A stretch of DNA of 64,000 bases from the human T2T-CHM13v2.0 reference genome, Homo sapiens: the NCBI RefSeq assembly GCF_009914755.1, contig NC_060940.1; one strand, given 5' to 3'. This document shows positions 6,097-54,572 of the stretch, in pieces (position 1 is the stretch's first letter; each line of letters begins with the position of its first letter). The notes beneath the pieces are model-generated. The model was given only the letters and a program-made list of their open reading frames with translations. It was not told where the DNA came from and searched no databases. The position numbers and the translations under genes are program-made.

Positions 6097-6945
<849 letters not shown>

Positions 6946-31882: not shown

Positions 31883-31914
31883 TAGATAGATAGATAGATA
31901 GGTAGGTAGGTAGG

Positions 31915-31958
<44 letters not shown>
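31883..31958 (+). repeat. Compound tetranucleotide STR (TAGA)4(TAGG)4(TAGA)11 in place of an Alu tail
   Basis: Read directly; follows Alu 3' end gactccatctc. Confidence 0.95.
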
Positions 31959-31959
<1 letters not shown>

Positions 31960-38029: not shown

Positions 38030-39185
38030 TCATTAATTATATTGTTGGCAATAGTACTTAGTCATAGATACAGAGAAATTCACTTGATTCAGATCTGAAA
38101 ATATTTTTAAAAGGGTTTTTTTTGGTTCACACATTAAGTGAATTACTCACCAACATTGATTGTCCTGCTGTAAAGGACCAGTGAAATTAAATTAGGATTG
38201 TTGAATGCTACCAAGCTTTATTAATCCATTTACCCCGCAGAATGTGTTTCTGGAATTGGCAGTCTCTGAACATTGTGCCATACTGAGACTAAATGTGCAG
38301 CCAGCCAAAACATTTAGGTGACATACCACAGTGCAAAATGTGTGCATATGTGTTTGTGAGGGAGGCATTCCAGTGTTGGGAGCCAGCCTAGGGGGAGACC
38401 TTTGACCTGTCTGGACACCAGGAAACTGCCACTGAGCAAGAATCATTTTCACACAAAAAGTGAGCAACTTTCTGGTATTTTTGTGACTATTTCATGTTTG
38501 AATAACTTGCCAGTGTCCTGCTGAAATGCCAGGAAAACAAGCTACAAAACCACAAGTGTGTCCTGTCTTTCCCCATTTGGTACATCCAGGCAAAAACAGA
38601 ACAACATTATCAGAACATATGCAGTGTTTCTAAAAGCCAGCAACAGTGCAGTAATAAACGGGTGTGAAGTCAAAGCATATTGCCCTCTTCCCTTTATGAA
38701 AATGGGGTTCAAATGCTCCCCACCTGCTCTTAATTCAGCTGTCCAATTCTTCCCATGCTTTTTTTCTTAACTGTGTTCAAAGAGAAATATTTTCCACACA
38801 TAACAAAAACTTGAAAGATTCAGATTTAATTTATAATAATTTCTCCACTGTTTTGTCATTTTCTGTGGATTGTTTTGCCTTCCTTTTAATTTTTAGATCT
38901 CTCCACACTTCCAGTTTATCCTTTTTCTTGTCTATTGAGTTTCTTCTTATCACTGCTTCCCACCTCACCTTAGACTCTCATTGCCCTCCTCTTCTCTTAG
39001 TTATTAGTTGAGCAGTTCTGTTGATTCCCTCTCATTAGTTCCTCTAGTTAGCATTCTTCTTTGCACTTTAGTTCAATGGTTCAGATGTGGATATAAACAG
39101 AATAGATTGGAATGGGACAGATGGGTGGCTGATCATCCCTGGTTAGCCCACAGATTGAATGTTCCATTACCTCTAATGTAATTAA

Positions 39186-45372: not shown

Positions 45373-45554
45373 CATTTGGCTGTAGCTAACTTCGTACTAA
45401 CTGAACTGTTAGGGATATATTGAAGCAGTGTATTATAGAATGATTATGTTAAGTAGCCCTTTTCTTAATTGCCAGTGTTAATTGACTGACAGTAGTGCTA
45501 AGTTGAAATTTTTTTCCCTCTTTTTAAAATTTAATTTTAAAATATAGGCAGTGT

Positions 45555-45842
45555 GGCCCGGGCGCGGTGGTTCACGCCTATAATCCCAGCATGTTGGGAG
45601 GCCAAGGAGGGTGGATCACAAGGTCAGGAAATCAAGACCATCCTGGCCAACATGGTGAAACCTGGTCTCTACTAAAAATAACAACAATTAGCTGGGCCTG
45701 GTGGCGTGTGCCTGTAATCCCAGCTACTCCAGGGGCTGAGGCAGGAGAATCACTTGAACCAGGGGAGTCGGAGGTCGCAGTGAGCTGAGATCCCGCCACT
45801 GCACTCCAGCCTGGTGACAAAAGGCAACTCCGTCTCAAAAAA
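45555..45842 (+). mobile_element. AluSc-like whose tail runs into the TA-rich minisatellite
   Basis: Alu consensus then aaaaaatatatata... Confidence 0.93.
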
Positions 45843-45948
45843 TATATATAAATATATATATTTCTAAAAATATATATAAATATATATAAATATAAAAATA
45901 TATAAATATACACACACATATAAATATATATTATATAACTATATAAAA

Positions 45949-46812
45949 TATATAGTTACATAACTATATAAAATATATAGTTACGTAACTATATAAAATA
46001 TATAGTTACGTAACTATATAAAATATATAGTTACGTAACTATATAAAATATATAGTTACGTAACTATATAAAATATATAGTTACGTAACTATATAAAATA
46101 TATAGTTACGTAACTATATAAAATATATAGTTACGTAACTATATAAAATATATAGTTACGTAACTATATAAAATATATAGTTACGTAACTATATAAAATA
46201 TATAGTTACGTAACTATATAAAATATATAGTTACGTAACTATATAAAATATATAGTTACGTAACTATATAAAATATATAGTTACGTAACTATATAAAATA
46301 TATAGTTACGTAACTATATAAAATATATAGTTACGTAACTATATAAAATATATAGTTACGTAACTATATAAAATATATAGTTACGTAACTATATAAAATA
46401 TATAGTTACGTAACTATATAAAATATATAGTTACGTAACTATATAAAATATATAGTTACGTAACTATATAAAATATATAGTTACGTAACTATAAAATATA
46501 TAGTTACGTAACTATATAAAATATATAGTTACGTAACTATATAAAATATATAGTTACGTAACTATATAAAATATATAGTTACGTAACTATATAAAATATA
46601 TAGTTACGTAACTATATAAAATATATAGTTACGTAACTATATAAAATATATAGTTACGTAACTATATAAAATATATAGTTACGTAACTATATAAAATATA
46701 TAGTTATGTAACTATATAAAATATATAGTTATGTAACTATAAAATATATAGTTATGTAACTATATAAATATATAGTTATGTAACTATATATAAATATAGT
46801 TATGTAACTATA
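45949..46812. repeat. Palindromic 25-bp minisatellite (TATATAGTTACGTAACTATATA-AAA)n, 35 cores
   Basis: Period of 25 read directly: 1 GTTACATAAC core (45955), 29 GTTACGTAAC cores (45980-46687, one 2-nt deletion near 46491), 5 GTTATGTAAC cores (46703-46808). Confidence 0.97.
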
Positions 46813-47156
46813 AATATATAAAAATATATAAATACATTTATATAAATATTTATAAATATATAAATACATTTATATAAATATTTATAAATATATAAATACA
46901 TTTATATAAATATTTATAAATATATAAATACATTTATATAAATATATAAAAATACATATATTTATAAATATATAAAATACATATATTTATAAATATATAA
47001 AAATACATATATAAATATATATAAATACATATATAAAAATACATATATAAATATATAAAAATACATATATATAAATACATATATAAATATGTATATAAAT
47101 ACATATATAAATATAAATACATATATAAATATATATATAAATACACATATATATAT
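46813..47156. repeat. AT-rich low-complexity repeat, including ~3.6 copies of a 32-bp unit (46831-46945)
   Basis: aatacatttatataaatatttataaatatata recurs at 46831, 46863, 46895 and partially at 46927; then degenerate TA/ACAT repeats. Confidence 0.9.
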
Positions 47157-48561
47157 GCAGTGTGGTTGTATCATTCAGATATTAAAGCACCCTGTCCCCA
47201 AATACCCTATTCTCTTCTCCCTTTGTCTTCCCCATAGGTAATCACTATTAGTACTTTCTTGTGTAAATTTGCGAAGTGTCTTTATACAAGTATATGAGAC
47301 TGTATGTTCTTATCCCCATTCCTTCTTACAGAAACGTTAGCTTACTGCATGCTCTGTTCTGCATTTTTTCTTTTTTCCCTTCATGTATCCCAGAGGTCTT
47401 TCCTGAGAGGGATTTTGAGGCTACATCCAGGAGCAGCAAAAAAGATTGTCTCCCTTTATCTGTGATTTTTGCCTTTGTGCCAGAGGGAGCCAGGGCTTGC
47501 CACACATTTACCACCCTGGTGTTGAGGGAGGACAGCCCTGGGCTTTTTGCTAGCTTTTCCAAATCAGCAGTGACTAGTTCTGAGGCTTTGTCCAAGTTAC
47601 TTAATTAACCCTGCAGACCTTCAGGGTCTTTACTGATTGAAGTGAGATTATTGGGGAAGATTAGTGATAATGTAAAGCACCTGACCCATAATAGCCATTC
47701 CCTATTATCTTTTAAAAAGCAGTTTCATGAAATTTAGAGGTGAAGATTTAAAATTACGTTACAAAAATTATGGTGCTAGGTGTTTTCAGGTAATATCATC
47801 AGTGCTTCCTGATAAGTCTTTTTTTCCCCCAAAGTTGTTTCATGAGTAGCTAAGATTCTTTTTGCACATCGAGATAAGAAAACTGAGGCTCAGAGAGACA
47901 CATAATATGCTCGTGAGACCCAGGATGGTTGGCCTGTGGACTCTTACTCTACTGAAGTCTAGGTCAAGGATAGGTAGGTTGGCAAAGGGTAACTGCACAT
48001 CCGGTATCTATTCCTGGTTTGTTCCTGATTTAAACACCAGGGTTTTTGGTTTTGTTTTATTAAACTAGCCCCCAAATAAACAGATGCCAAAGTCATTGTG
48101 TTGGGAAATTGCTCATTAAGGACCCTGTTCCTTATTTCTTAGACCTAAAGATTTCAGACTGAAATCAGTCTTTGGAAACGAAAAACAAATGTATAATATC
48201 GTTGGTCAAACTAATGTTTCTTTCTCAATTCTTTGTGAATCTGAGCAAATAATTAGAACAGCTCATGGTTTTATAAACTTCACTTTTTAAAATGGTGTTA
48301 ATAGGTTGTGTTCTGTATTGGGATTTGGATGTAATTATAAATTGATAATGGGATGTTCTTTCTTGATTGCTCTTCTCGTAAAAATAGAATAGTCTGTTTA
48401 GTAGACTCTTCTTACTTGACCTCAAGTCCCCTTGGAAGGGAGTTATCTATGCTTTTCCTATCTGTTGTGACACCTGGCAGAGTAGTTTGTAAATGTTGGC
48501 AAGTGATGTATACAGGTCTTTCTTAAGATTATCCAGGGAATTGCCCTTTTCTGGAATCTTA

Positions 48562-49027: not shown

Positions 49028-49111
49028 ACCAGCGCCCCAGAAATCCTCTTTGTGGTCCTTTCTGGTCACCAGCGCCCCAGAAATCCTCTTTGTGGTCCTT
49101 TCTGGTCACCA
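49028..49111 (+). repeat. Perfect 40-bp tandem duplication
   Basis: accagcgccccagaaatcctctttgtggtcctttctggtc x2 followed by acca. Confidence 0.95.
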
Positions 49112-53919: not shown

Positions 53920-54162
53920 AGCTAGTGTTTATTGACCATATCTTGGACACTGTGTTGAAGTCTTCCACTTATTCCTCACAACAGTGCTGTGAGGTAGGGA
54001 TTCATACCGTTTTTCTCCCCATTTAATCTTCATCCCAATCCTATGTGGTGGATACCATTACCACCCCCACTTTACAGCTAAGGAAACTGAGGCTTAAAGG
54101 CAGCAGTATGCTCCAGGTCACATTGTTGTAAGTAGTGGATCCAGGATTTCCAGCTACTACTG

Positions 54163-54207
<45 letters not shown>

Positions 54208-54572
54208 CTGCTGCTGCTGGTGCTGCTGCTGCTACCACTACTACTACTACTACCACTACTACTACTCTCTACTGTTCTGTGATGAATGTTTTTGGAGAGT
54301 TGCCCTGGGCAGCCCTGGCAGGCAGGATAGAGCAGTAGCAAAGAGTACAGAGTGTGGTGCCAGACTGTGGATTCAAGCCACAGCTCCACTGCTTCCTACT
54401 GAAGTGAACTTGGGCAAATTGCTTCGCGTCTCTGTGTGCCTTTGTGTCTTCACCTGTAAGATGGATAAATAAATAAAAGTACCTACTTCATAGGGTTGTG
54501 GAGTTAATAACATGGAAATTCAAATAGTGTTGGCACATAGTAAGTGCTCATTAATAGCTGTTGTTATTATTG
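53920..54572. mobile_element. Two oppositely oriented MIR relics flanking the CTG/CTA repeat
   Basis: cactttacagctaaggaaactgaggct (54068-54094) and aacttgggcaaattgctt...tcacctgtaagatgg...ggcacatagtaagtgctca. Confidence 0.7.
54154..54266 (+). repeat. Compound trinucleotide repeat (CTA)2 CTG CTA (CTG)12 GTG (CTG)5 GTG (CTG)3 CTA CCA (CTA)5 CCA (CTA)3
   Basis: Read directly. Confidence 0.97.

What the first reader, a model, noticed from the sequence alone, without database searches (positions are those of the whole stretch)
45949..46812. Intronic VNTR that is a tandem array of 35 PAR-bZIP/NFIL3 D-box sites: a possible copy-number-tunable circadian enhancer or TF sink
Seen: each 25-bp unit contains GTTACGTAAC (29 copies), GTTATGTAAC (5) or its reverse complement GTTACATAAC (1), and most units also contain TATAAAA. 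Established: RTTAYGTAAY is the consensus for the PAR-bZIP factors HLF/DBP/TEF and for NFIL3/E4BP4, and all three variants fit it on one strand. NUP93 lies at 16q13 between the metallothionein cluster and SLC12A3/HERPUD1/CETP. Inference: the near-identical internal units imply recent expansion and probable length polymorphism, so the number of D-boxes could differ between people and tune liver or kidney expression of NUP93 or its neighbours. My unverified recollection is that the reference intron is shorter than this one.
Basis: partly seen in the sequence, partly recalled or inferred. Interest (0 to 1): 0.8.

Follow-up and report, generated by a model that had tools for sequence, protein, structure and literature searches.

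The report
Alu-tail palindromic minisatellite with D-boxes
A 25-base repeat that grew inside the tail of an old Alu element in a NUP93 intron carries 35 textbook binding sites for clock-related bZIP factors, but it looks like an unstable, hairpin-forming minisatellite and has no shown regulatory role.

Summary
There are 35 tandem units of about 25 bp (window 45955-46823): 29 carry GTTACGTAAC, 5 GTTATGTAAC and 1 GTTACATAAC, and no RTTAYGTAAY match lies elsewhere in the 64 kb.

New here:
- **Origin.** The array lies inside a 1.3-kb A/T-rich tail of an old Alu, bounded by a 9-nt target-site duplication.
- **Unit structure.** Each unit is a 22-bp perfect palindrome plus AAA. As a single strand the array folds into one roughly 350-bp imperfect hairpin (z = -52 as DNA).
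- **Rarity.** In T2T-CHM13, 29 of the 412 GTTACGTAAC sites (7%) sit here. It is by far the largest of only three loci with tandem TTACGTAA.

Evidence against a dedicated function:
- AT-rich minisatellites carrying D-box-consensus units are common.
- About 71,000 consensus matches exist genome-wide.
- TTACGTAA ranked only 18th among D-box 8-mers at DBP/E4BP4-bound sites in mouse liver.
- No paper or searched VNTR-eQTL supplement names this locus.

Most likely this is a young, slippage-driven and probably length-polymorphic minisatellite whose D-boxes are a by-product. bZIP binding in vivo is plausible but untested. Length polymorphism could not be tested with one human assembly.

The parts
45548..45556 (+). 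5' copy of the target-site duplication GCAGTGTGG
   Evidence: Longest shared word between the two flanks. A shared word of 9 nt or more was found in 4 of 2000 random 25x25-nt pairs from the window.
45555..45830 (+). Alu body. It is old: 8 CpG are left and it is 71-85% identical to the other Alu copies in the window.
   Evidence: Read. blastn against the window gave 22 Alu-like matches of 240 bp or more, with median identity 79.6%. The S-type subfamily label is my recollection, not a call.
45831..45929 (+). Proximal part of the Alu tail: A-rich and (AT)n-like sequence with a loose 28-bp period and a short (CA)n
   Evidence: TRF rows 45838-45977 (period 28) and 45842-45979 (period 2); sequence read.
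45930..45954 (+). Degenerate unit 0 (ATTATATAAC...), which has no D-box
45955..45979 (+). Unit 1, GTTACATAAC (CA core; fits the consensus on the - strand)
45980..46702 (+). Units 2-30: 29 units with the perfect palindromic CpG-core D-box GTTACGTAAC. 28 are identical 25-mers and one (unit 22) is 23 bp.
   Evidence: The 22-mer palindrome TATATAGTTACGTAACTATATA occurs 28 times.
46703..46823 (+). Units 31-35: GTTATGTAAC (TG core). The spacers have diverged, with unit lengths of 23-25 bp.
46809..47156 (+). Distal part of the tail: compound AT-rich repeats with a period of about 14 and no D-box
   Evidence: TRF row 46809-47153; sequence read.
47157..47165 (+). 3' copy of the target-site duplication GCAGTGTGG
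45951..46741 (.). Predicted single-strand hairpin (either strand): 348 base pairs, in 22-bp helices separated by 3-nt internal loops
   Evidence: DNA fold -300.5 kcal/mol against -114.9 +/- 3.6 for 20 shuffles. RNA fold -474 against -196.8 +/- 6.9. Extent computed.

Best explanation
This is a young AT-rich minisatellite that arose inside the A-rich tail of an old Alu in a NUP93 intron. Shown: the whole block 45555-47156 is one Alu plus a tail about 1.3 kb long, enclosed by a 9-nt target-site duplication. The repeat unit is a 22-bp perfect palindrome plus AAA, with the D-box as the palindrome's centre. The array is predicted to fold on itself as single-stranded DNA. Inferred: point changes in a TATATA-type tail sequence produced a self-complementary unit (cores run TA, CA, CG, TG across the array). 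Hairpins on single-stranded replication intermediates then promoted slippage or unequal exchange, which expanded and homogenised the CpG-core unit to 29 copies within roughly the last few million years. On this reading the D-boxes are a by-product of an AT-rich palindrome. They are real high-affinity sequences for PAR-bZIP, NFIL3 and C/EBP proteins in vitro, but the array has no dedicated regulatory role. Its main biological property is instability and probable length polymorphism.
For: The array sits between the Alu body and the 3' target-site duplication. This tail is 1326 nt long and 87.9% A+T, while the other 24 Alu 3' ends in the window have A/T-rich tails with a median of 28.5 nt and a maximum of 48 nt. 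Other AT-rich sub-repeats without any D-box flank it in the same tail. The unit contains a 22-bp perfect palindrome, present 28 times. The single-strand DNA fold gives z = -51.7, and 0 of 20 shuffles fold as well. 28 of 35 units are identical, and the diverged units lie at both edges. The Alu body has only 8-9 CpG left. AT-rich minisatellites with D-box-consensus units are common: 242 triple matches against 136 for the reversed pattern, and 10 fetched examples hold 0-18 consensus sites each. Single consensus sites are no commoner than the reversed control, 71,241 against 78,114. AT-rich minisatellite DNA at FRA16B forms secondary structure, stalls replication, and expands and deletes in human cells (abstract). 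The hub table lists no RefSeq functional element. No paper couples NUP93 with a VNTR at this site and none of the 16 papers holding GTTACGTAAC concerns it (listing).
Against: The array is unusual on one measure. It holds 29 of the 412 GTTACGTAAC sites in this genome and 27 of the 34 tandem TTACGTAA triples; the only other loci have 7 and 4 copies. So it is the densest cluster of the ideal palindromic site. The 25-bp spacing would let bZIP dimers occupy neighbouring sites without overlap (my inference; 137 degrees of rotation per unit). Triple tandem D-boxes are enough for DBP-activated, E4BP4-repressed reporters. C/EBPbeta binds ATTACGTAAT slightly better when it is methylated, so default intronic methylation need not block all binding. 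Retention of 29 CpG could also reflect protection from methylation rather than youth alone. No occupancy, methylation, accessibility or population data could be examined here, so absence of function is not shown.
Confidence: 0.6

Rival explanations
1. One reading: the array is bound in vivo by PAR-bZIP, NFIL3 or C/EBP factors and acts as a cis enhancer or silencer whose strength scales with copy number. It would modulate NUP93 or neighbouring genes in liver or kidney, possibly with a daily rhythm.
For: There are 35 consensus sites, 29 of them the perfect palindrome. This is the largest such cluster in CHM13. Three tandem D-boxes drive DBP/E4BP4-responsive reporters. Each D-box is followed 2 bp later by TATATAAAA. 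VNTRs that alter the number of TF sites and promoter activity are known, for example MNS16A with GATA-1 (abstract in the listing).
Against: The array originated in an Alu tail. TTACGTAA ranked only 18th among 8-mers at DBP/E4BP4 sites in mouse liver, below TTATGCAA and TTATGTAA. No RefSeq functional element is listed for the window (hub table). NUP93 is absent from the VNTR-eQTL supplement files I could search in three studies, and a fourth lists only a different NUP93 VNTR; some files were not searchable and bioRxiv supplements are closed. The array is 2.5 kb or more from any exon and far from the promoter.
Confidence: 0.2
2. Its main consequence is structural. Like expanded AT-rich minisatellites (FRA16B/FRA10B type) and palindromic AT-rich repeats (PATRRs), it forms hairpins or cruciforms that stall forks and make it a local hotspot for deletions, expansions or breakpoints, more so in longer alleles.
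For: A 348-bp predicted hairpin pairs 87% of the nucleotides. FRA16B behaves this way (abstract). PATRRs of 200-595 bp extrude cruciforms and break (passages). One long-read study lists NUP93 among driver genes with somatic SV breakpoints in liver cancer, but gives no position (passage).
Against: The hairpin has a 3-nt mismatch every 25 bp and the array is 84.5% A+T, below the more than 90% described for PATRRs. At 0.86 kb it is far shorter than fragile-site alleles (sizes recalled). No breakpoint has been mapped to it in anything I read.
Confidence: 0.12
3. It acts as a trans-acting TF sink: the array titrates PAR-bZIP or NFIL3 protein away from other targets according to copy number.
For: Tandem decoy arrays sequester an activator and reshape its dose-response in a synthetic yeast system (abstract and passages). 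7% of all perfect GTTACGTAAC sites are here.
Against: The genome holds 35,836 + 35,405 strand matches to RTTAYGTAAY, so 35 sites are about 0.1% or less. The yeast effects quoted used arrays of 67-240 sites against a single target promoter.
Confidence: 0.02
4. It acts as RNA. Transcribed within the NUP93 pre-mRNA (same strand), the array forms a long AU-rich duplex that could be edited by ADAR or sensed as double-stranded RNA.
For: The RNA fold is -474 kcal/mol against -196.8 +/- 6.9 for shuffles, z = -40. The array lies on the sense strand of an intron (hub table).
Against: This is a prediction only. The duplex is interrupted every 22 bp, introns are short-lived, and no editing or sensing data were available.
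Confidence: 0.04
5. It is an assembly artefact, with the copy number inflated in this assembly.
For: None found. The idea is raised only because highly identical repeats can be mis-assembled.
Against: The array is 0.86 kb, with unique flanks and ordered variant units at both edges and one internal 23-bp unit. It is much shorter than the long reads behind a T2T assembly (read lengths recalled).
Confidence: 0.01

Closest known systems
AT-rich minisatellites of rare fragile sites (FRA16B, FRA10B)
   Same: An AT-rich minisatellite with a unit of a few tens of bp, predicted secondary structure and expansion-prone behaviour. FRA16B DNA forms alternative structures, stalls polymerases, and expands and deletes in human cells (abstract; title of Yu et al. 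1997 in a reference list).
   Different: The unit sequence differs (a 25-bp unit with a CpG-core palindrome). The array is only 0.86 kb here, and no cytogenetic fragility is known. It lies in NUP93 at 16q13, not at the FRA16B locus (16q22, recalled).
Palindromic AT-rich repeats (PATRR11, PATRR22, PATRR8, PATRR17)
   Same: Several hundred bp of AT-rich DNA able to fold back on itself. Some PATRRs are intronic (passages).
   Different: PATRRs are single near-perfect palindromes with more than 90% A+T. This is a tandem array of 22-bp palindromes, so it can pair in many registers. It has a 3-nt bubble per unit and is 84.5% A+T. No translocation is known.
Alu poly(A)-tail-derived simple repeats
   Same: It lies 3' of the Alu body, on the same strand, inside the target-site duplication.
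   Different: It is about 40 times longer than the other Alu tails in the window and has evolved a complex 25-bp palindromic unit rather than a mono- to tetranucleotide repeat. That Alu tails seed microsatellites is recalled knowledge; I read no paper on it.
VNTRs that carry transcription-factor sites, and synthetic tandem D-box reporters
   Same: Copy number sets the number of TF sites, as for MNS16A with GATA-1 (abstract in listing). Three-copy D-box concatemers respond to DBP and E4BP4.
   Different: No binding or reporter data exist for this array. It is deep in an intron, and its D-box variant (TTACGTAA) ranked low in vivo.
Repeated decoy TF-binding arrays
   Same: Contiguous identical high-affinity sites 10-30 bp apart.
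   Different: There are only 35 sites against about 71,000 consensus matches in the genome. No evidence of sequestration exists.

Membership tests
Minisatellite / VNTR | Head-to-tail repeats with a unit of roughly 10-100 bp | tested here: met
   Period 25, 36.5 copies, 97% matches
Minisatellite / VNTR | Copy number varies between individuals | not testable with these tools
   Only one human assembly (T2T-CHM13) is held. No paper or searched supplement gives alleles.
Alu-tail-derived repeat | Immediately 3' of an Alu body on the same strand | tested here: met
   Alu at 45555-45830 on the + strand; A/T-rich sequence runs unbroken to 47156
Alu-tail-derived repeat | Alu and tail enclosed by a target-site duplication | tested here: met
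   GCAGTGTGG at 45548-45556 and 47157-47165; 4 of 2000 random flank pairs share 9 nt or more
D-box (PAR-bZIP / NFIL3 response element) | Sequence fits TTAYGTAA / RTTAYGTAAY | tested here: met
   35 of 35 units fit on one strand. Consensus as printed.
D-box (PAR-bZIP / NFIL3 response element) | Occupied by DBP, TEF, HLF or NFIL3 in cells | not testable with these tools
   No ChIP data are at hand. In mouse liver TTACGTAA ranked 18th among bound 8-mers.
D-box (PAR-bZIP / NFIL3 response element) | Confers DBP-activated, E4BP4-repressed (rhythmic) transcription | not tested
   Needs a reporter assay
PATRR | Near-perfect palindrome several hundred bp long | tested here: inconclusive
   Predicted 348-bp hairpin, but with 3-nt internal loops every 25 nt; 87% of nucleotides are paired
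PATRR | More than 90% A+T (as described) | tested here: not met
   84.5% A+T
PATRR | Site of recurrent or constitutional translocation | not testable with these tools
   No breakpoint data
Fragile-site AT-rich minisatellite (FRA16B type) | AT-rich minisatellite that forms secondary structure | tested here: met
   Prediction only
Fragile-site AT-rich minisatellite (FRA16B type) | Expanded alleles give a cytogenetic fragile site | not testable with these tools
   This allele is 0.86 kb. I know of no rare fragile site at 16q13 (recalled).
TF decoy array | Sites numerous enough to change the free TF pool | tested here: inconclusive
   35 sites against 71,241 strand matches to the consensus, but 29 of 412 perfect palindromes. 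TF copy numbers are unknown here.

The most novel reading that the evidence does not exclude
The NUP93 intron holds the human genome's largest cluster of the ideal palindromic D-box: 7% of all GTTACGTAAC sites, each followed by a TATA-like element. It could work as a human-specific, length-polymorphic and methylation-gated landing pad for PAR-bZIP, NFIL3 or C/EBP factors. That would give NUP93 or neighbours such as SLC12A3 or the MT cluster a liver/kidney or time-of-day component of expression that differs between people according to copy number.
Probability: 0.12. Interest if true: 0.7.

Novelty: new member of a known kind. Interest (0 to 1): 0.35.

Why it matters
If the array is only what the sequence shows, it is a clean example of how an Alu tail can evolve into a complex palindromic minisatellite and create dozens of perfect transcription-factor sites from nothing. 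Motif counts inside repeats then measure duplication, not selection. If it is bound in vivo, it would be a natural copy-number series of clock-output elements in a gene linked to kidney disease, next to SLC12A3 and the metallothionein cluster. It would also be easy to assay, because its 35-mer occurs nowhere else in CHM13. Its hairpin potential makes it a candidate site of replication trouble and of long-read or short-read genotyping error.

Tried and rejected
- **Literature on this locus.** 'NUP93' + 'VNTR' gave 3 papers, none on this locus; I read the NUP93 passage of one, which was unrelated. 'GTTACGTAAC' gave 16 papers, by their titles and abstracts primers or unrelated. 'NUP93' + 'tandem repeat' gave 41 papers with 15 listed. 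I read one passage, which only lists NUP93 among genes with somatic SV breakpoints.
- **VNTR-eQTL supplements searched for NUP93.** PMC8024321 had 1 hit, a different 17-bp UTR repeat. PMC10234305 had 0 hits, with file 1 not searched. PMC8275641 had 0 hits, with file 6 not searched. PMC11701250 had 0 hits. bioRxiv supplements are closed, so a read-depth VNTR study held only as a preprint could not be checked.
- **Are such arrays generally Alu-tail products?** Among 10 other fetched arrays, only 2 have an Alu oriented so that its tail points at the array: L014 abuts it and L012 ends about 260 bp away. This was rejected as a general rule.
- **Is this the largest D-box array of any kind?** Only the first 100 of the 242 triple matches were listed. 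The claim of 'largest' is therefore complete only for the CpG-core octamer.
- **Tail-length comparison.** The first version stopped at the unaligned last bases of each Alu and was redone.
- **Dating.** Ages from assumed, recalled mutation rates give a median of 1.6-2.8 My and a 95% bound of 6.7-12.3 My for 28 identical units. This is crude, because homogenisation resets the clock.
- **Assembly artefact.** Considered and set aside.

Full report
**Observation**

Reading the window shows an Alu at about 45555-45830, followed by unbroken A/T-rich repeats up to about 47156.
- Tandem Repeats Finder reports a 25-bp period array at 45918-46820 with 36.5 copies and 97% matches. Looser AT-rich arrays flank it at 45838-45977 and 46809-47153.
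The first site is at 45955 and the last at 46799.
- All 34 + strand matches to RTTAYGTAAY in the 64-kb window lie in the array.
- 28 of the 35 units are the identical 25-mer. Unit 22 lacks 2 bp. The five TG units are the last five and the CA unit is the first.
- A further degenerate unit without a D-box (ATTATATAAC...) precedes the array at 45930-45954.

The 35 sites are copies of one sequence, so they are one independent event, not 35.

**Origin**

- The nine bases GCAGTGTGG lie directly before the Alu (45548-45556) and directly after the last AT-rich repeat (47157-47165). Only 4 of 2000 random pairs of 25-nt stretches from the window share 9 nt or more. The whole 1.6-kb block that NCBI masks is therefore one Alu insertion whose tail has grown to 1326 nt at 87.9% A+T.
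- The other 24 Alu 3' ends in the window have A/T-rich tails with a median of 28.5 nt and a maximum of 48 nt (a first version of this measure was flawed).
- The Alu body is old. It retains 8-9 CpG and is 71-85% identical to the other 21 long Alu matches in the window. The S-type subfamily label is my recollection.
- The cores of successive units read TA (unit 0), CA (unit 1), CG (units 2-30) and TG (units 31-35). This is what one expects if the motif arose by transitions in TATATA-like tail sequence, or decayed from CpG at the older edges. The order of events cannot be settled from one genome.

**Anatomy of the unit**

- TATATAGTTACGTAACTATATA is a perfect 22-bp palindrome and is present 28 times. 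AAA separates successive palindromes. The D-box is the centre of the palindrome and supplies its only G:C pairs.
- As single-stranded DNA, the 864-nt array folds into one long hairpin of 348 pairs (window 45951-46741), built of 22-bp helices and 3-nt internal loops. Its energy is -300.5 kcal/mol against -114.9 +/- 3.6 for 20 shuffles, z = -51.7.
- As RNA the energy is -474 against -196.8 +/- 6.9 kcal/mol, z = -40.
- The array is 84.5% A+T.

**Genome-wide context (T2T-CHM13, the window's own assembly)**

- The 35-mer made of one unit plus the next D-box occurs 27 times, all in this array.
- GTTACGTAAC occurs 412 times in the genome, against 2833 for the reversed, CpG-free control. So 29 of 412 (7%) are here.
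- Three TTACGTAA spaced 7-37 bp apart occur at only three loci: chr8 (7 copies), chr9 (4 copies) and this one, which has 27 of the 34 triples. That list was shown in full.
- Triples of the looser consensus RTTAYGTAAY are common: 127 + 115 matches against 36 + 100 for the reversed pattern. They sit in many AT-rich minisatellites, mostly with ATTATGTAAT units. Only the first 100 rows were listed.
- Ten such arrays that I fetched hold 0-18 consensus sites each. Two of the ten have an Alu whose tail points at the array, one abutting it and one about 260 bp away.
- Single consensus sites number 35,836 + 35,405, no more than the reversed control at 38,864 + 39,250.

**What the literature adds**

- A mouse-liver ChIP-seq study (passages read) defines the D-box as TTAYGTAA. 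It finds TTATGCAA and TTATGTAA to be the most preferred 8-mers at DBP/E4BP4 sites and ranks TTACGTAA 18th. It used triple tandem D-boxes as reporters, with clear DBP activation and E4BP4 repression for at least the ten top-ranked sequences (PMC6687812).
- Printed matrix lists give E4BP4 as NRTTAYGTAAYN and also give CRE-BP1 as TTACGTAA (PMC2654074 and PMC3978281, passages).
- A preprint states that C/EBPbeta binds ATTACGTAAT with high affinity and 1.5-2-fold better when methylated (10.1101/2025.11.14.688575, passage). The site is therefore not specific to PAR-bZIP factors, and methylation need not abolish all binding.
- FRA16B AT-rich minisatellite DNA forms alternative structures, stalls replication, and expands and deletes in human cells (PMC2875025, abstract).
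- PATRRs are described as near-perfect palindromes of several hundred bp with more than 90% A+T that extrude cruciforms and break (PMC7999016, passages).
- Tandem decoy arrays can sequester an activator in yeast (PMC3322331, abstract and passages).
- No paper couples NUP93 with a VNTR at this place. Searchable supplements of four VNTR-expression studies list either nothing for NUP93 or a different UTR repeat. Some files were not searched and preprint supplements are closed.

**Interpretation**

The best-supported account is a young, self-complementary AT-rich minisatellite born in an Alu tail and expanded by hairpin-assisted slippage or unequal exchange.
- With recalled mutation rates, 28 identical units imply homogenisation within roughly the last few million years: median 1.6-2.8 My, 95% bound 6.7-12.3 My. 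This is a crude figure.
- The D-boxes are then a by-product of the palindrome.
- I put about 0.6 on this reading, meaning no dedicated regulatory role. I put 0.2 on real in-vivo bZIP binding with a copy-number-dependent cis effect, and 0.12 on a mainly structural, instability consequence. A trans sink, an RNA role and an assembly artefact get small values.
- The structural description itself (Alu tail, target-site duplication, palindromic unit) I hold at about 0.9.

**What stays open**

These tools could not address length polymorphism, the GRCh38 length, ape orthologues, CpG methylation, chromatin state or TF occupancy. Because the 35-mer is unique to the locus, occupancy can be read directly from raw ChIP reads by k-mer counting.

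**Verdict**

The array is real and striking in one respect: it is the densest cluster of the ideal D-box in this genome. In kind, however, it is a new member of known classes, namely Alu-tail-derived AT-rich minisatellites and VNTRs that carry TF motifs. Interest 0.35.

Noticed in passing
window 54160-54233: An interrupted CTG trinucleotide repeat of about 25 units, (CTG)n broken by two GTG and followed by (CTA)n-like units, in the same NUP93 intron on the sense strand. TRF gives 24.7 copies and 91% matches.
   Followed up: partly
window 31883-31959: (TAGA)19 microsatellite, 97% matches, adjacent to a masked repeat.
   Followed up: no
window 49028-49111: A perfect 40-bp direct duplication (2.1 copies, 100% matches) of non-AT-rich sequence.
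   Followed up: no
window 6108-6692: Two Alu elements in tandem, reported by TRF as a 304-bp period and 83% alike.
   Followed up: no
L009 (G000:C8:79117600-79120800), locus 1507-1648: The second-largest tandem TTACGTAA array in CHM13. It has 7 copies at 22-24-bp spacing, but with T before the octamer, so it does not fit RTTAYGTAAY. No Alu lies within 1.5 kb.
   Followed up: partly
L011 (G000:C1:113425900-113429400), locus 1572-1983: A 25-bp AT-rich minisatellite with 18 ATTATGTAAT sites, the largest D-box-consensus array among the 10 others I fetched.
   Followed up: partly
genome-wide: Triples of RTTAYGTAAY are 1.8 times as common as triples of the reversed pattern (242 against 136), although single sites are not commoner (71,241 against 78,114). 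I did not work out why.
   Followed up: no
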